Part shown: piece after piece, positions 3,297 through 36,072 of the stretch
Position numbering within the stretch: position 1 is the stretch's first letter
Layout: each line of letters opens with the position of its first letter
Origin: a virus
Lineage: Duplodnaviria > Heunggongvirae > Uroviricota > Caudoviricetes
Direction: 5' to 3' (one strand)
Virus record (IMG/VR): IMGVR_UViG_2718218136_000008
Location: 1 to 48,802 of that record
DNA length: 48,802 nt
Notes under the pieces: generated by a model
Database searches by the model: none
Told to the model about the DNA's origin: nothing
Seen by the model: only the letters and a program-made list of their open reading frames with translations
Position numbers and translations under genes: made by a program

Positions 3297-3848
3297 ATGC
3301 ATGACAATATTTGGTTTACATATAAAGCACGTATCCAAGCGCACCATCGACTAGAATGGCTTGAAAAACACTCTCAATTTATCCTCGTTTGGTATGCTAT
3401 ATTGAGTGCGGTACTTTCAATTGTAACGTTGCGATTTCCAAAGGTTCTAGGAGATAATACAGATGTCGTTGCGGCGATACTTTCAGTGGCTCTACTGGGT
3501 ATTTCTCTGATCGTATCTAACCTAGATTTTCGTGGTCGAGCAATAGCCATGAGAAGGAATTATATTGCACTACAGCGACTCTATTTTGACATTACCACCA
3601 GTCAACAGTTATCTCTTGAACAGAAAGAAAAATATTTTAATTTGCTCAATGAGGTTGAGAATCACCGTGACATAGATGATAAAATTTCAAGGGTAACTCA
3701 AGTTGGACTTAAGACGAGGATCCCCACACAAAAAGAAAAAATAATTGTTATTTTATGGATATTACTTCGAATATTTATTACTGCCGCACTTTATATACTC
3801 CCATTAATATATCTTTGGATTGACTATGACTGCAAGCAGAATTTTTAA
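3297..3848 (+). CDS. small membrane protein, SLATT-like (N-terminal helix, two TM helices, helical region, C-terminal hydrophobic helix)
   Basis: 183-aa ORF, AAGGA RBS; hydrophobic segments FILVWYAILSAVLSIVTL, VVAAILSVALLGISLIVSNL, IIVILWILLRIFITAALYILPLIYLWI; 3' end overlaps the RT gene by 23 nt; low GC. Confidence 0.6.
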   Translation: MHDNIWFTYKARIQAHHRLEWLEKHSQFILVWYAILSAVLSIVTLRFPKVLGDNTDVVAAILSVALLGISLIVSNLDFRGRAIAMRRNYIALQRLYFDITTSQQLSLEQKEKYFNLLNEVENHRDIDDKISRVTQVGLKTRIPTQKEKIIVILWILLRIFITAALYILPLIYLWIDYDCKQNF

Positions 3849-5196
3849 AAAGTCATTCTCGAAAAAAAATCTTCTAAAAGTATACTCTGAAAAAATCAAA
3901 GAATCAGGAGCGATTGGCATAGATCGGATTCGCCCATCAAAACTTGATTTGACAATAAAAAATGAGATCACTTTCATTTTTGAAAAGGTTAATTCTGGCA
4001 ATTACAAATTTACAGCATATAAAGAAAAATTAATATCTAAAGGCGCTAACTCTACACCCAGACAGATTTCCATACCAACTGCTAGGGACAGAATTACTCT
4101 TAGAGCTCTCTGTGAATGCCTTACGGAAATATATCCTAAGTCCAGATTAAAACTACCACATACAGTAATTGACTCATTGAAAGAAGCATTAAACAACAGT
4201 CTATATGCTGAATATGCAAAAATAGATCTTAAAAGTTTCTATCCTTCAATTGAACATAAATTGATAATTAATGCAATAAAAAATAAAATTAGAAAAAAAG
4301 AAATTAGACAGTTAATAACATCATCATTAATCGTGCCTACTGTAAGTGGAACCACAGGAAGCAAAGGTATCCCTAATAATACCAGAGGAGTACCTCAGGG
4401 ATTAGCGATATCAAACATTTTAGCTGAAATATCACTATCTAATTTCGATGATGAAATCAATAAAATGCATGACATATGGTACATGCGATACGTTGATGAC
4501 ATTCTTATTTTAACACCAAAATATCAAGCAACAAAAATAGCTTCTCATATCATTGATAAGCTTCAATCATTAAATTTAAACCCACATCCATTAAATGAAG
4601 AGAACTCAAAATCCAAAGTAGGCAGCTTGGATGAAAGTTTCAACTTTTTGGGCTACCACATAAAAAATCGAGAATTATTGATAAAACATGAGAGCATTCT
4701 TAGATTTGAGTCATCCTTAGCAAAAATTTTTACTGCATATAGACACGCTCTACTACAAGCTAAAAATAAGCGCGATAAAGAACGAGCTGTTGCATATTGT
4801 CAGTGGAAACTAAATCTTAGAATTACGGGATGTGTGTTTGAAGGTAAACGATTGGGATGGGTATCGTACTTCTCACAAATAACGTCAACAGCTCAACTTC
4901 GAGCTGTTAATCATACGATCAATAATCTTATCCGCCGATTCGGCCTTTCATCAGAAATAAAACCAAAGTCTTTGATTAAAACTTTCTATGAACTCCGCAG
5001 GGGTAGAGCGGAGACTTTTAAATACATACCTAACTTTGACAATCTACATATATCTCAGAAACGAGAAATTGTTTCTATGTGGATAGGGAAAGAGAATGAA
5101 AAAAAACTTAGCAATAGTGAAATAGAGAGAAAATTTAAATTTAAAATTGCGAAATCAGTAAAAGAGCTTGAAGAGGACATTTCAGGGATATCATAG
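3826..5196 (+). CDS. reverse transcriptase (retron/UG-DRT-like prokaryotic RT)
   Basis: 456 aa from ATG 3826; RT motifs RQISIPTARDRITLRAL, DLKSFYPSI, GVPQGLAISNILAEISL, YMRYVDDILIL (YVDD), FNFLGYHI; ~180-aa C-terminal extension; low GC. Confidence 0.85.
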   Translation: MTASRIFKKSFSKKNLLKVYSEKIKESGAIGIDRIRPSKLDLTIKNEITFIFEKVNSGNYKFTAYKEKLISKGANSTPRQISIPTARDRITLRALCECLTEIYPKSRLKLPHTVIDSLKEALNNSLYAEYAKIDLKSFYPSIEHKLIINAIKNKIRKKEIRQLITSSLIVPTVSGTTGSKGIPNNTRGVPQGLAISNILAEISLSNFDDEINKMHDIWYMRYVDDILILTPKYQATKIASHIIDKLQSLNLNPHPLNEENSKSKVGSLDESFNFLGYHIKNRELLIKHESILRFESSLAKIFTAYRHALLQAKNKRDKERAVAYCQWKLNLRITGCVFEGKRLGWVSYFSQITSTAQLRAVNHTINNLIRRFGLSSEIKPKSLIKTFYELRRGRAETFKYIPNFDNLHISQKREIVSMWIGKENEKKLSNSEIERKFKFKIAKSVKELEEDISGIS

Positions 5197-15915: not shown

Positions 15916-18900
15916 TACCGATATGCTCCACTTAACCGACCACCATCACGGGCCTGCTGTTGCATAAAGTCCGCTGCCGCTTTTTTCCCAAGGTCATAAA
16001 CCACCTTCAGGGCAGCAGGACCTATCTGCCCGTTCGTGCCATCGTTATTGATCTCGATGTTGTACTGCGGGGCAAACATCGCCATACCTGAACCACCAAT
16101 ATCCGCCACAACCCCCAGCTTACCGTCAGCACCACGACGCAGTGGCAGAATGGCTTCAGGTCCAGCTTCCCCCATCACACCCGCGCCTTTTGCAAAAGCA
16201 AAAAACGTCGGACGGTTAACCACCGTGCCACTGTAGCGACTCAAATCAGCCGACTGATAAACACCGCCATCAGCATTGGCTACAAAATCAAAAGGCAGCG
16301 CGGAAGCAATGCCTTTTACCGCTTTCATTAAAGCTATCTGAGCCATGATTCTGGACATATCTGACAGCACAGAAGAGGTGAAGGATTTGAAATTGAGTTT
16401 GCCTGTAGTACAGAATGTCGCCAGCCAGTCACTCATGCTACTGAACGCAGACGTGAACAACTGTTCCACTGTCCCGGCTGTGTTATCCGCATTCTCAGTG
16501 ACATTCTGGAGTGCACGCAGGACTCCGTTTTTCCAATTACCCTGAGCAATTTCAAGCCGTTGCCAGTAACGGCGATTCTCATTCAGTTGTCGGTTCAGAC
16601 TCTCCGTCAGCGCCTGCTCGGCCTTTCTGTAGTCATCCGTGTTATATGTCCCTTTCTGCTCACTATCCCGCCTCAACTGCTCCAGCTGTTGCTGGTATTT
16701 CTGGCGAAGACTCAGTTGTACCTGATATCGCTGCCGCTGCTGATCACCCATACCCACCGTGGCGATATCCAGGTCATGTTGCTGACGCTGAGCGCGCTCT
16801 TCTTCAGCCAGTTGACTGGTCAGCTGAATTGTTTTTTTCTTCAGATCGTTGAGTGCCGTCTGTTTCTGAAGCTCCTGCTGTTTTACATCCAGCAGCGTCA
16901 GTGCCTGAATCAGTTCATCTTTACGGGCCAGCACACTCTTTTCATCTGCCGTCAGTTTTTTCCCGTCCAGATCGCTGATGCGCTGCTGCAGAGCCAGAAG
17001 CTGTTTATGCGCTTCTGTCATCTTTTCAGTGGCAATGCCTGCTGACTGTCTTGCAGCAGCAATCTGTCCTTCCACCTGTGCCTGTTGCTGACTGTACTGC
17101 AGCAATAACCGGGTGGCCTCATCATTACGGGTTTCGCGTGTTTTTTTCTTACCGGATGCCAGGGCTTTCTCGTAACGTTCATTTTCACGTTGTATCGCCG
17201 CATCCCTGACAGCCTGATCGGCGTACTGCATGGCATTAATACGCGCAATTTCACGCTGATGTCGTGCAGCTTCCGTTTCATTCATCCGGTTCAGTGCAGC
17301 ATTTTCAGCATTACGGCGTTTCTGTTGCTCCTGATAATTCCGCTCTGCCTGCTCTTTTGCATCCTGCAAATCCTTCTGGCGTTTTTTCTCCTGAAGATCG
17401 TTAAGACGCTGCTGATCGTATTCAACCTGAGAAGATGATGCCGTCCAGGGGAGTCTTTTCGCCCGCGACACTTTCTCCTGCAAAGTGGCAATCTGCGCAT
17501 CCAGCGAATCTTCACGACCAATATTCATGGCCGCATCCCAGAACTGCTTCCACCAGTCAGACAAAGTTTGCAGCGTACTGCCCAGCGCATTGAGGTTATT
17601 ATCAATATCCGCAGTACGCCGACCGGTTTCCTCTGCCAGTGCAGACATGGCTATCCGTGCCGCATCACTGGACCGCCCCTGCTCTCCAAGGACGCGTATC
17701 TGCTCAAGCTGAGTGGCAGTAAGAAAATGCAGCTCATTGTCCAGAGACTTCGCGGCATTTACAGGATCATCCTTCAGCCGCTTAAACTGATTTATGGTAT
17801 CGCTGACCGACTGGCCAACCGATCGCTCCATCTGTGCGGCAGCTCTCGCCACCATACCGATATCGTTTCCACGAAATGCACCACTCCCCACCACCTGAGC
17901 CAGCGCACCGGCTGCAGCATGTTGCGTGATACCATTCCCGGAAATAGCACGACTGAGCGTCCACAGCTGCCCGGCAGTGACTCCGGCATAATGCCCCGTC
18001 AGCGACAGCTGGCGGTTAAATTCTTCCCCCTCCTTCTGACCGTCATACCAGGCTTTACCCAGGCCATAGACAGCCGCGGCAATACCGCCAATAACCCCGC
18101 CAAGCATCATGCCTTTCGGTGACATCAATGTGTCTATCCACCCGGCACGGTTAGCCAGCGTTATTCCGGATCCCCTCAGCGCACCTAAATTTCCGCGGGC
18201 CAGTTCACCTATCAGAACGCCTATCTCCTGACGGGCCGCTGCACTTTTCAGCCCCAGCGAATGCGTGGCTTTTCCTGCCTGCTCCATTTTGCGGATATAC
18301 ACTTCTGCAGCACTGCTTACCCCCAGCTGGGCAGCCTTGGCACGAAGCAACTCAGAAGAAGAAAGATTCTGGCGGGTTGCCTGCTCTTTAAGCTGACGGA
18401 TAAACGCCACTTTCTGTCGGGTAGCCTCTTCCTCAGCCTGTGTAAGAACACGGGTTTTCGCCGTAACCTCAGAAATCAGCGCCAGATAATCCTGCTGACC
18501 AATCCCGCCACTGTTTCTGGCCTGTCGGATCTGCTGCTGAATACGCTGTAATTCCTGCAGACCCGCACTGGCCTGTTTCACACTGTCAATCTGACGATAA
18601 AACGCAGCAGCCGCTTTATCCTGAGCCTCCGCCAGAGCCATGGCCTGCGCCTGTTCCTCGCGCATTTTCTGGCTCAGCGCCTCCATACGCTGGCGGGTTT
18701 TCTCCACCTCGCGGGCCATGCGTTCATGAGCCTGTGCGTTCTTCTCCACCGTCTGCGCATGGACGGATGCGGCTGTTGCAGCCGAAGACGCCGCCTGCGT
18801 TGTCTGCCGGGCGGCCTGAGTCTGACGCTCCATAAAACGCTGCATACGGGCAGAAGACCGTTCTGCATCGCTGGCTGCACCATTCAGAAGGTTTTTGATA

Positions 18901-32375: not shown

Positions 32376-32473
32376 GACATACCAATAACTCTTGTCTAAA
32401 AAGCCAGCAAGATAAAAGGTCAGTATTCACGACCACCAGCGTGTTTACTGTACTGCACCAAGTTTACAGGTAC

Positions 32474-32497
32474 AAAAAAACCGCTCAGCGGCGGGTT
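32474..32497 (-). terminator. intrinsic terminator (possible tR'-like late terminator)
   Basis: Minus-strand CCGCCGCTGAGCGG hairpin followed by T7; promoter-like TTGGAG-N17-TACAAT upstream on the minus strand (~32545..32575). Confidence 0.5.
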
Positions 32498-32621
32498 TAA
32501 GTTGTGTGGCGAAGTAACCACTCTTAACAGCATATTTGATTTTTTACGATTGTAAACGGTTGATTATTCATCTCCAATAAAAATAATTGTGTAGGTATGC
32601 CCTTAACAATGGATAAGAAAC

Positions 32622-33067
32622 ATGAATAAAATGACTGTACTATTACTTAGCGCAACTATCATTTCAGGTTGTACTTCTTCCGTACCATTGATAAAAAAAC
32701 TCAATCAGGAAAACCTGAGGGGGTTTATCAAAATACGACAAAAGATAAAGTCAAAGATGCCCTTGTGAATTACTGCAATAGTAGAGGGTTGATAATTTAC
32801 AACGCTGATAACAGCAGTGTTATATGTGGTAAAGAACTGGAAGGCGGGTCTGCTGTTTTTGGACAAATGTTAATCGGCAATGCCTATTCAACAACCCCGG
32901 TATCAAAAGTCAGATTTACTATCGCTCAAGTTAATAACGATACAAAAGTGTGGGCCGATATGTGGATGGAAACTCAAATGGCAATGGGGCAAGTACAACA
33001 AATGGCTATAACAGACAACGCAAGCAAAAACACTATCCAACAACGTCTTGATGAATTAAAACCTTAA
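32622..33067 (+). pseudogene. lipoprotein gene interrupted by a frameshift at an A7 run
   Basis: ATG 32622 frame encodes lipobox signal MNKMTVLLLSATIISGC... and stops at ~32767; 132-aa mature-part ORF continues from 32669 in another frame; frames meet at AAAAAAA 32693..32699, one extra A restores a ~149-aa lipoprotein. Confidence 0.5.
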
Positions 33068-33151
33068 GTAAATTAATTAAATAAAATGGGGAGAATAAAT
33101 CGACTCCCCACACATTAAACTGATTCAATTACCCCCTCAATAAGAGGTCTT

Positions 33152-33517
33152 CTAACGATCCATCTCTAGCTCAATTTCTAACATCATTAACATGCCATCA
33201 ACTACACCTTCAGCCTTTTGCAATAAACGCCCAACCCAGCAATCAGAACGCCCATGTTTACGGGCAAGCGCCATAAACGTCATACCACCTACATAATAAT
33301 CCACTAATAAATCGTGCAAATCGCTGTTGTTCTTTTTCAGGCGAGCCATGCACCCACAAATGATCATCGCATCATCGTCACAACATTGCGGGCGGGATTT
33401 TACTTTTGAAGGGATTAGTCCTTTAAATCCTGCAGCAATAGACGACCAGGTGACATCCTCGTGATTATTTGCCACCCATGCCCCCCAACGTTCAAGAACC
33501 ATTTGAATATCACGCAT
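33152..33517 (-). CDS. late-gene antiterminator Q (QuuD-like)
   Basis: 121 aa from ATG 33517 ([14 protein letters not shown]...[16 protein letters not shown]...), matches recalled E. coli prophage Q. Confidence 0.8.
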
Positions 33518-33534: not shown

Positions 33535-34530
33535 TCAGGCCAGCACGCCAATTGCCAGCGCACGATCGATAAAACGAAATATCAGCTCCAGCTGGGAGCC
33601 ATACTTCTCTTCAAATGCCACGGTATCCGCATGCAGCTCGTCGTGATGCTTTCTGCACAAAGGCAACACAAAGAGGTCATGCGCTTTTGTACCCATTCCC
33701 CCCTGACCGTGGCCTATCAGGTGGTGGGGATCATCAGCAGACTTTCCACAACATGCACACGGCTGTGTCTTAACCCAGCGCGTGTACTTTTCGTTAACCC
33801 AGCGGCGACGTTTGGGGCGTAACATAAAAGACTCCGGCGACTCCGGATCCACTTTCAGCGCCAGCACCTTTTTCGCTTTATCCTGGATGATGCTGGTGGC
33901 AGGAACCGAAGGCACAAGGTCACTTTCCCGGGTGACAGATGGCACAACAGGCTTCGGTAATCTCAGTGCCTTACGGGCTGCGCTTTCCGGTAAGGCATCC
34001 GCCAGATCATTACGAACCAGCCACCAGCACAGTTCCGGCATTGTCACAACGTGACTGTCATCAAAACCGAGATCCCGACGCACGACAGACAACACCCAGC
34101 GGGCACAGTTATCCGTTGCCATTGATTCCAGCCGTTCCGTGAACTGGTCACGCAGCTGGTTATCGCAGTGCCAGCACAGACGAATTGCTCCCGGAGCGTG
34201 CCGCATTGTGGTCATGTTCTCGCTGTGCCAGTCAGAATGAGGCCACTGACAGCCCTTTTCACGAAGTAACCAGCTTTCAAGACATTCCACGCCACCAGCA
34301 CGACGGATCACTGCCTCATTGCGGAACACGGTCCGAACGGCAGGATCATCCGCCAGCGGTTGTGATGCCGCCGGAACGGCACCACTGGCGAAAGATGAAT
34401 AACGTTCCGGCTCTGGCTCCAGCAGGACACGCCCCTGCATAAACAGGGGCATCAGCTCTGAACCTGGCCTGAACAATACGATCCCCATACGCGGGGCAAT
34501 TTCAGGGGTCAGTAGTGCTCTCACGGTCAC
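33535..34530 (-). CDS. prophage protein with C-terminal Cys/His nuclease-like motif (DUF968-like)
   Basis: 331-aa ORF; C-terminal [18 protein letters not shown]...CRKHHDELH cluster. Confidence 0.6.
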
Positions 34531-35360: not shown

Positions 35361-35749
35361 TCAGGCAGCTGCACCCGCCGTTTTCTCGTACTTACTGATA
35401 GTGATCTCGACCTTCCCTTCCGGGATAACCGGTCCCCACTCCACCAGCATTCTTTTCACCTGACTGTCGTCTTCCCACCCCCCGCGTGGGTCAGGGCGTC
35501 AAACAGCGCCTTGTTATAGTTGTCCAGATCGCGGATCCTGTTATCCGGAGGAAACAACACGATCTCCACTGAAGCAGGTGCCGACGTTGGTTTCGGCAGA
35601 CGACGTAACTGCTCAACTATTGCTGCGCACGCCGCGCTCTGGAATTTTCGCCCCGCCGCGCTTATCAGGCTCTTACCAGCAAACGCCCCTTTGTTGGGGT
35701 GTCGCCAGTACGTGTTCACGCTGGGCGGAAAAGGCAGGATCAGCTTCAT
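35361..35749 (-). pseudogene. rusA: Holliday-junction resolvase RusA with frameshift at a G6/C6 run
   Basis: N-terminal 97-aa ORF (…RDLDNYNKALFDALTHAG) stops early; adjacent frame continues WEDDSQVKRMLVEWGPVIPEGKVEITISKYEKTAGAAA; frames meet at CCCCCC 35478..35483. Confidence 0.6.
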
Positions 35750-36072
35750 ACTTTCAGGCTCCTCTCATGTAACCAGTGGGTTGCACGCAGCCTTGCGTTT
35801 TCCTCACCGGCAAGCAGTGAGCGGATAATCCCGACCGCCTCGCTGTCGTCGTCCTTCACCGCGGTATGAAGCTTTATCCCCCGGGCCACGCCACGCTTTA
35901 TCGTGATGACGCCTTTTTTCTCCAGTGCGCGAAGATGCTCCACCGCTGCATTCACCGAACGGTATCCCAGCATGGTTGCCACCTCCTGATTGGTTGGCGG
36001 GAAGCCACGTTCTTTCTGGTAAGAAATCAGCATATCCAGCACCTGCTGCTGGCATTGAGTTAACGTCGTCAT
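35746..36072 (-). CDS. winged-helix DNA-binding protein (LexA N-terminal-domain-like)
   Basis: ~108 aa from ATG 36072 (MTTLTQCQQQVLDMLISYQKERGFPPTNQEVATMLGYRSVNAAVEHLRALEKKGVI); TAATG coupling with upstream gene. Confidence 0.55.
   Translation of the reverse strand: MTTLTQCQQQVLDMLISYQKERGFPPTNQEVATMLGYRSVNAAVEHLRALEKKGVITIKRGVARGIKLHTAVKDDDSEAVGIIRSLLAGEENARLRATHWLHERSLKV

What the first reader, a model, noticed from the sequence alone, without database searches (positions are those of the whole stretch)
32622..33067. Lipoprotein gene between Q and the lysis genes split by a frameshift at an A7 tract
A lipobox signal peptide (MNKMTVLLLSATIISGC) is encoded from ATG 32622, but the frame stops ~48 codons in; the rest of a ~130-aa protein continues in another frame, which the ORF track can only start at a non-ATG codon. 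The frames meet at AAAAAAA (32693..32699), and one extra A gives a ~149-aa lipoprotein. This could be slipped-strand phase variation, decay, or a homopolymer error.
Basis: seen in the sequence. Interest (0 to 1): 0.4.

Follow-up and report, generated by a model that had tools for sequence, protein, structure and literature searches.

The report
One-base deletion in prophage lipoprotein gene
A small prophage lipoprotein gene that is intact in almost every other E. coli copy is broken here by the loss of one A from a run of eight, which is an ordinary mutation or sequencing error and not a programmed switch.

Summary
ATG 32622 opens a lipoprotein signal peptide (lipobox ISGC, Cys17). That frame stops at 32768, and the rest of the protein runs in the -1 frame to 33067. 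The frames meet at A7 (32693-32699), and one extra A restores a 148-aa protein.

The restored protein matches PHROG 3152 end to end. Full-length homologues from several Enterobacterales genera are continuous across the junction.

The lesion is neither conserved nor programmed. Among 184 complete E. coli genomes with the locus, exact matches give 128 AAAGAAAA (a synonymous interruption), 31 A8, 1 A7 and 0 A9. A further 57 viral and metagenome contigs give 46 AAAGAAAA, 11 A8 and no A7.

A7 recurs on at least 5 haplotypes. Eight of the ten extra A7 loci come from assemblies with other homopolymer contractions, so those calls look like artefacts. Three others (FCI1, L013, L014) look clean.

The window has a second 1-nt deletion in rusA. 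Otherwise it has no coding-sequence frameshifts against its closest relatives.

Verdict: an ordinary A8-to-A7 contraction. I put artefact slightly ahead of genuine slippage mutation, and only reads can decide. Phase variation and programmed frameshifting are unlikely. Low interest.

The parts
32560..32587 (+). Promoter-like site TTGATT-16-AATAAT upstream of the lipoprotein gene
   Evidence: Consensus scan, 9 of 12 matches. Function not tested.
32622..32672 (+). Signal peptide and lipobox (MNKMTVLLLSATIISGC), with the lipidated Cys17 codon at 32670-32672
   Evidence: Translation. The regex [LVI][ASTVI][GAS]C matches ISGC. Cys17 is invariant in 21 homologues.
32622..32768 (+). Zero-frame ORF as it stands: 48 aa, ending at TGA 32766-32768. 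Only residues 1-26 are authentic.
32693..32699 (+). A7 tract, the site of the 1-nt contraction relative to A8 or AAAGAAAA in other copies. In the zero frame it is phased as A_AAA_AAA.
   Evidence: censuses.
32699..33067 (+). The remaining 122 codons of the lipoprotein plus the stop codon, in the -1 frame. The mechanical ORF is 32669-33067, 132 aa from TTG.
   Evidence: PHROG 3152 matches positions 1-148 of 148. Homologue alignment.
32697..32726 (+). RNA hairpin overlapping the 3' end of the tract. The inner stem UCAGG/CCUGA begins 5 nt after the heptamer.
   Evidence: Fold of 32693-32760: dG -14.8 kcal/mol, z -4.4. The hairpin sequence is also present in the in-frame alleles aligned, so it is not specific to A7.
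33088..33109 (.). GC-rich hairpin GGGGAG...CTCCCC between the convergent lipoprotein and Q genes. It is terminator-like on the - strand.
   Evidence: and the sequence.
33152..33517 (-). Antiterminator Q gene (PF06530 family), convergent with the lipoprotein gene
   Evidence: Annotation of identical or near-identical loci.
35478..35483 (-). Second 1-nt deletion in the window, inside rusA. CCCAC[A]CCCCC becomes a C6 run, and the ORF is cut to 97 aa (35456-35749) instead of 129 aa.
   Evidence: The truncated product is not on record elsewhere.

Best explanation
The locus is an AT-rich moron gene sitting between Q and the late genes of a dusA-integrated lambdoid prophage, on the opposite strand. 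When intact it encodes a 148-aa lipoprotein of the PHROG 3152 family. From the established rules for bacterial lipoproteins, I infer Sec export, lipidation and cleavage at Cys17, and Lol sorting to the outer membrane because residue +2 is Thr rather than Asp. The protein has a small alpha+beta fold and its function is unknown.

In this window the run that reads A8 in the most closely related alleles is one base short. As written, translation from ATG 32622 gives a 48-aa product and the conserved body of the protein is not made. The contraction is not programmed.

I consider a homopolymer under-call in the source assembly slightly more likely than a genuine mutation. In either case the biological gene is the ordinary intact lipoprotein gene or a fresh null allele of it.

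Shown: the indel, its position, the family, and the allele frequencies. Inferred: the cause of the indel and the protein's location.
For: Only 1 of 184 complete E. coli genomes with the locus has A7. Exact matches give 31 A8, 128 AAAGAAAA and 0 A9. Among 47 IMG/VR and 10 metagenome contigs there is no A7.

The exact truncated product is on 23-28 contigs, against at least 1000 for the intact allele.

The ten A7 loci fetched sit, together with the window, on at least 5 haplotypes. Phage PhiR40_1 (A8) has 0 SNPs against two of them over the 2.3 kb compared.

Seven of the ten also have C6 to C5 at window position 33698, and one has A7 to A5 at 32474. All five complete chromosomes among them carry one to five further T or C homopolymer contractions within about 10 kb.

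The window has a second single-base deletion in a C-rich run, in rusA, 2.8 kb away.

Long-read assemblies are known to fragment genes through homopolymer errors (abstracts of PMC12007338 and PMC8011154, listed).
Against: The window is not generally under-called. Across 48.8 kb, only the A-tract and rusA deletions disrupt coding sequence, and the left 24 kb has no frame-breaking indel against a 99.1% relative.

Three other A7 loci look clean. FCI1 has no 'frameshifted' flags in two 50-kb samples. L013 and L014 have no other homopolymer contraction against good references over about 8 kb. So genuine A7 mutants probably exist.

Both lesions in the window hit genes that are dispensable for the phage, which fits real neutral decay.

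The source assembly and its sequencing technology are unknown.
Confidence: 0.5

Rival explanations
1. This is a genuine replication-slippage mutation (A8 to A7) in this prophage copy. The gene is a fresh null or hypomorphic allele, a pseudogene in the making. Low-level -1 ribosomal slippage on A_AAA_AAA, or insertion of an extra A during transcription, could still yield a little protein identical to wild type.
For: Clean A7 instances occur on different haplotypes: FCI1, L013 and L014. The window has no general excess of homopolymer contractions. A runs are hypermutable and under-represented in E. coli coding sequence (PMC4066793; PMC1088944). The tract is phased A_AAA_AAA in the zero frame, and a -1 slip gives exactly the 148-aa wild-type sequence. 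A_AAA_AAA is shift-prone in E. coli, though much less so than A_AAA_AAG (PMC5009743). A C-AAA-AAA site rescued 1-nt deletions translationally (PMC1851650).
Against: Most public A7 calls co-occur with other homopolymer contractions. The second nearby single-base deletion, in rusA, raises suspicion about sequence quality. There are no read data.
Confidence: 0.4
2. The tract is a slipped-strand phase-variation switch. It toggles A8 (ON) and A7 or A9 (OFF) to vary expression of a surface lipoprotein, and is maintained as a contingency locus.
For: A homopolymer sits early in the coding region of a predicted envelope protein. A7 arose independently on several haplotypes. Some A7 calls look real.
Against: The tract is not conserved. 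128 of 184 complete genomes and 46 of 57 viral or metagenome contigs carry the synonymous interruption AAAGAAAA, which cannot slip. No A9 was found. OFF alleles make up at most about 1-3% of A8 carriers, and most of those are attributable to assembly error. Distant homologues are not all Lys-Lys at this position.
Confidence: 0.05
3. This is programmed recoding. The A7 arrangement is the functional form, and the full-length lipoprotein is made by programmed -1 ribosomal frameshifting or transcriptional slippage, alongside a short zero-frame product.
For: The heptamer is a perfect X_XXY_YYZ motif (A_AAA_AAA) in the zero frame. A hairpin lies just downstream.
Against: The two-frame arrangement is present in 1 of 184 genomes and 0 of 57 contigs. 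The heptamer is broken by a G in most alleles. The hairpin sequence is also present in the in-frame alleles aligned. Its outer helix overlaps the tract and its inner stem has only 5 bp.
Confidence: 0.02

Closest known systems
Intact prophage lipoprotein WP_001038608.1 / WP_001033965.1 (PHROG 3152, function unknown), including the copies in phages PhiR40_1 and PhiR55_1
   Same: Identical sequence apart from the missing A. Same position between Q and the DNA methyltransferase and lysis genes, on the opposite strand.
   Different: Those copies read A8 or AAAGAAAA and are annotated as one 447-nt CDS. Here, and in FCI1 (WP_236927826.1), only the 132-aa fragment can be called.
Gene-fragmenting homopolymer errors in long-read bacterial assemblies (Kastor, PMC12007338; Homopolish, PMC8011154)
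   Same: A single-base contraction of a homopolymer splits a conserved gene. The same A7 call co-occurs with other contracted runs in several public assemblies.
   Different: The window itself shows only two such lesions in 48.8 kb, so the attribution is not proven here.
Slipped-strand phase-variable (contingency) genes of Neisseria, Haemophilus, Helicobacter and Campylobacter (from general knowledge)
   Same: A homopolymer lies in the 5' coding region of an envelope protein, and a length change switches the reading frame.
   Different: The tract is short, is interrupted in most alleles, and shows no A9. OFF alleles are rare and mostly artefactual.
-1 frameshift sites of the A_AAA_AAG / A_AAA_AAA type (E. 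coli dnaX, IS elements, pDEST17 C-AAA-AAA)
   Same: Same heptamer class and phase. A -1 slip would restore the protein.
   Different: Neither the heptamer nor the two-ORF layout is conserved, and there is no convincing stimulator.
Lambdoid prophage morons that encode envelope proteins (for example bor and lom of lambda, and the cor/llp exclusion lipoproteins; from general knowledge)
   Same: A small AT-rich gene (37.7% GC against 50%) inserted between conserved phage genes, with promoter-like and terminator-like sites of its own and transcribed against the late genes.
   Different: No sequence or family relationship was detected, and the function is untested.

Membership tests
Bacterial lipoprotein (Lgt/LspA substrate) | N-terminal signal peptide with a basic n-region, a hydrophobic h-region, and a lipobox [LVI][ASTVI][GAS]C | tested here: met
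   MNK / MTVLLLSATI / ISGC. The regex matches. Cys17 is invariant in 21 homologues. Pfam LPAM_1 matches only weakly (E 0.22, below its cut-off).
Bacterial lipoprotein (Lgt/LspA substrate) | Actual lipidation and membrane localisation | not testable with these tools
   This needs palmitate labelling, globomycin sensitivity or cell fractionation.
PHROG 3152 (phage protein family of unknown function) | Full-length match to the family HMM | tested here: met
   E 1.3e-104, protein 1-148 against profile 1-148 of 148.
Programmed -1 ribosomal frameshift site | Slippery heptamer X_XXY_YYZ in the zero frame | tested here: met
   A_AAA_AAA at 32693-32699, in phase with ATG 32622.
Programmed -1 ribosomal frameshift site | Conservation of the two-frame arrangement and of the heptamer among homologues | tested here: not met
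   A7 occurs in 1 of 184 genomes and 0 of 57 contigs. The heptamer is interrupted by a G in 128 of 184 genomes and 46 of 57 contigs.
Programmed -1 ribosomal frameshift site | Downstream stimulatory structure at the appropriate spacing | tested here: inconclusive
   There is a hairpin with dG -14.8 kcal/mol and z -4.4. Its inner 5-bp stem lies 5 nt downstream, but its outer stem overlaps the tract, and the same sequence is present in the in-frame alleles aligned.
Slipped-strand phase-variable gene | Tract-length polymorphism in both directions among or within strains | tested here: not met
   Only A7 is seen, never A9. Eight of the ten extra A7 loci are in assemblies with other contracted homopolymers. 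Within-strain heterogeneity cannot be tested here.
Slipped-strand phase-variable gene | The repeat tract is maintained across alleles | tested here: not met
   The commonest allele is AAAGAAAA, a synonymous Lys AAG.
Lambdoid moron | A discrete insert between conserved phage genes, with deviant base composition and its own transcription signals | tested here: met
   GC is 0.377 (gene) and 0.33-0.38 (flanks), against 0.50 for the prophage. There is a promoter-like site at 32560-32587 and a hairpin at 33088-33109. The gene is on the opposite strand to its neighbours. The activity of these signals was not tested.

The most novel reading that the evidence does not exclude
In the minority of alleles with an uninterrupted A8 tract, the tract could act as a low-frequency ON/OFF switch for a prophage-encoded outer-membrane lipoprotein. 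The OFF (A7) state would then be leaky, because A_AAA_AAA permits -1 slippage that regenerates exactly the wild-type protein.
Probability: 0.05. Interest if true: 0.35.

Novelty: already known. Interest (0 to 1): 0.08.

Why it matters
It matters little biologically. The practical points concern annotation hygiene. The 132-aa 'hypothetical protein' WP_236927826.1 is a frameshift fragment of a 148-aa lipoprotein. Several 'complete' public chromosomes carry systematic homopolymer contractions in this prophage. The lipoprotein family itself (PHROG 3152) has a KA1 / BamC-N / Flpp3-like fold and is carried by about 3% of complete E. coli genomes, yet it remains functionally uncharacterised. That open question is the only modestly interesting one here.

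Tried and rejected
1. I first assumed the window was E. coli FCI1, because the 571-bp query matched it at 100%. Direct comparison showed only about 98% identity elsewhere and a different rusA state. The window is in none of the searchable collections.

2. Pfam, NCBIfam and PADLOC gave no family for the protein.

4. I considered a clonal origin for all A7 alleles. This is rejected, because they sit on at least 5 haplotypes.

5. I looked for the truncated RusA product elsewhere, to trace the source assembly or find a shared lineage. There was no record.

6. I considered the TTG-started 132-aa ORF as a real alternative product. I rejected it because it lacks the signal peptide, its first 10 residues are out-of-frame sequence, and no properly spaced Shine-Dalgarno motif is visible (sequence).

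Full report
**Observation.**
- ATG 32622 opens MNKMTVLLLSATIISGC, with the lipobox I-S-G-C and the Cys17 codon at 32670-32672.
- This frame runs into TGA at 32766-32768 after 48 codons.
- A 132-aa ORF, 32669-33067, lies in the -1 frame and has only a TTG start.
- An A7 run lies at 32693-32699.
- Adding one A gives a continuous 148-aa protein (not 149).
- In the zero frame the run is phased A_AAA_AAA. A -1 slip would therefore give exactly the same 148-aa sequence.
- One correction to the title: the gene is on the + strand. It is convergent with Q (33152-33517, -) and antisense to the methyltransferase, holin and lysozyme genes downstream of Q.

**The two parts are one gene.**
- The restored protein matches PHROG 3152 (unknown function) over positions 1-148 of 148, E 1.3e-104.
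- Full-length homologues of 143-154 aa, at 49-72% identity, occur in Salmonella, Jejubacter, Citrobacter, Xenorhabdus, Enterobacter and Phytobacter (a partial copy is recorded from Morganella).
- In the alignment of 21 sequences, the junction residues K25-K26-T27 lie inside the most conserved N-terminal motif, K-x-T-x-S-G-K-P-E-G. K25, T27, S29, G30, K31 and E33 are invariant, as is Cys17.
- DNA alignment with intact copies puts the single missing base inside the A run.

**Provenance.**
- The window is a dusA-integrated lambdoid prophage in an E. coli chromosome.
- It is not strain FCI1, although FCI1 shares the identical 571 bp including A7. Elsewhere the two are about 98% identical.
- The window is not in the 5,426 complete RefSeq E. 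coli genomes. The best matches are 99.1% over 1-24,000 and about 98% at 80% coverage over the right half.
- The truncated RusA product of the window is not on record in the large gene-position collection.
- The source assembly and its sequencing technology are therefore unknown.

**Allele census.** The locus is present in 184 of 5,426 complete E. coli genomes.

| Collection | AAAGAAAA | A8 | A7 | A9 |
|---|---|---|---|---|
| 184 complete E. coli genomes (exact 87-89-mer matches) | 128 | 31 | 1 (FCI1) | 0 |
| 47 IMG/VR viral contigs | 36 | 11 | 0 | 0 |
| 10 metagenome contigs | 10 | 0 | 0 | 0 |

- In the first row, the other 24 genomes include one junk assembly (SCU-306, where all neighbouring genes are frameshifted). 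The rest carry an extra SNP in the 88-mer.
- AAAGAAAA is ATA-AAG-AAA-ACT, a synonymous Lys codon.
- The two cultured phages with this gene, PhiR40_1 and PhiR55_1, span the A8-length 572 bp; PhiR40_1 was read directly and is A8.
- The homopolymer is thus absent from most alleles, and the broken form is very rare.

**Who else has A7?**
- The exact 132-aa fragment (WP_236927826.1) was called on 23-28 contigs, against at least 1000 for the intact allele. All ten loci fetched read A7.
- Together with the window, they sit on at least five haplotypes. Phage PhiR40_1 (A8) has 0 SNPs against two of them over the 2.3 kb compared, so the contraction is recurrent and not clonal.
- Seven of the ten also carry C6 to C5 at window position 33698 (DUF968 gene), and one carries A7 to A5 at 32474.
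- All five complete chromosomes among them (CP164793, CP165564, CP164294, CP163931, CP163655) show one to five further contractions (T8 to T7, T7 to T6, T6 to T5, C6 to C5 or C5 to C4) within about 10 kb of their closest good references. This is the signature of homopolymer under-calling.
- Three A7 loci look clean. FCI1 has no 'frameshifted' flags in two 50-kb samples. L013 and L014 have no other homopolymer contraction against good references over about 8 kb.
- Genuine A7 mutants therefore probably exist as well.

**Quality of the window itself.**
- Against its closest relatives, the only single-base indels inside coding sequence are the A-tract deletion and a deletion in rusA at about 35481. 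The rusA change turns CCCAC[A]CCCCC into C6 and cuts the ORF to 97 aa instead of 129 aa.
- The remaining indels are intergenic or are compensated within a divergent patch of the tape-measure gene.
- The left 24 kb has no frame-breaking indel against a 99.1% relative.
- Two lesions in 48.8 kb fit a lightly erroneous long-read assembly. They fit early neutral decay of two dispensable prophage genes equally well.

**What the gene is.**
- GC content is 37.7% for the gene and 33-38% for its flanks, against 50% for the prophage.
- There is a promoter-like site at 32560-32587 and a GC hairpin at 33088-33109 shared with the end of Q. This is the usual anatomy of a lambdoid moron.
- AlphaFold2 with 21 sequences gives a confident model: mean pLDDT 84.9, pTM 0.75, an alpha+beta fold with the order beta-alpha-beta-beta-alpha-beta-beta-beta-alpha.
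- From the established rules for E. coli lipoproteins, I infer processing at Cys17 and outer-membrane sorting, because residue +2 is Thr.

**Mechanistic readings.**
- Programmed -1 frameshifting has one supporting feature, the perfectly phased A_AAA_AAA. There is also a hairpin of dG -14.8 kcal/mol and z -4.4 beginning inside the tract. However, the hairpin sequence is also present in the in-frame alleles aligned, and neither the heptamer nor the two-frame layout is conserved. I reject this reading.
- Phase variation is disfavoured by the interrupted majority allele, the absence of A9, and the rarity and mostly artefactual nature of A7.
- What remains is a non-programmed A8 to A7 contraction, either a base-calling artefact or a real replication-slippage mutation.
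- If the contraction is real, the allele may be leaky. A_AAA_AAA is shift-prone in E. coli, though far less so than A_AAA_AAG (PMC5009743). A C-AAA-AAA site rescued 1-nt deletions translationally (PMC1851650). A runs of 8-9 support transcriptional slippage (PMC1088944). This is inference and was not tested here.

**Verdict.** My probabilities are about 0.5 for artefact, 0.4 for genuine mutation, 0.05 for phase variation and 0.02 for programmed recoding. The finding is ordinary and already covered by existing annotation of the intact gene, so interest is low.

Noticed in passing
window 3297-3848 (+) and 3820-5196 (+): A SLATT-domain protein followed by a reverse transcriptase lies next to the prophage integrase (1668-2765) and dusA. 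PADLOC matches are RTasSLATT (E 1.5e-56) and RT_UG17 (E 1.1e-158), so this is a DRT-class anti-phage defence pair carried by the prophage.
   Followed up: partly
window 35456-35750 (-), lesion at 35478-35483: rusA is frameshifted by a 1-nt deletion relative to all relatives examined. The ORF is 97 aa instead of 129 aa, and the truncated product is not on record in any public contig.
   Followed up: yes
window 32697-32726 (+): A stable RNA hairpin (dG -14.8 kcal/mol, z -4.4) overlaps the 3' end of the A tract. On the - strand the same hairpin followed by T7 was flagged as terminator-like. Its sequence is also present in the in-frame alleles aligned, and its role is unknown.
   Followed up: partly
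window 32468-32576 (-): There are promoter-like sites (TTTACA-16-TATGCT at 32556-32529; TGGAGA-16-TACAAT at 32576-32549), followed by a strong terminator GCCGCTGAGCGG plus T7 (32492-32468). These could be the Q-dependent late promoter and its terminator. If so, the lipoprotein moron sits between Q and the late promoter rather than inside the late transcript. Not tested.
   Followed up: no
L008-L012 (CP164793, CP165564, CP164294, CP163931, CP163655): These 'complete' GenBank E. coli chromosomes carry two to six homopolymer contractions, counting A7 (A8 to A7, C6 to C5, T8 to T7, T7 to T6, T6 to T5, C5 to C4), within about 10 kb of this prophage. This breaks DUF968, Dam and other genes, and indicates systematic under-calling.
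   Followed up: yes
proteins P0010 (154 aa) and P0012 (151 aa), from a 4.97-Mb E. coli contig: These variants of the lipoprotein have the N-terminus replaced (MNMMISYQELVRTF-LSATIISGC), which puts charged residues into the signal peptide. This is another way the gene is altered in some strains.
   Followed up: no
window 16278-17570 (-), tape-measure gene: A divergent patch with several compensating small indels relative to the 99.1% relative CDF6. It looks like mosaic recombination rather than error.
   Followed up: no
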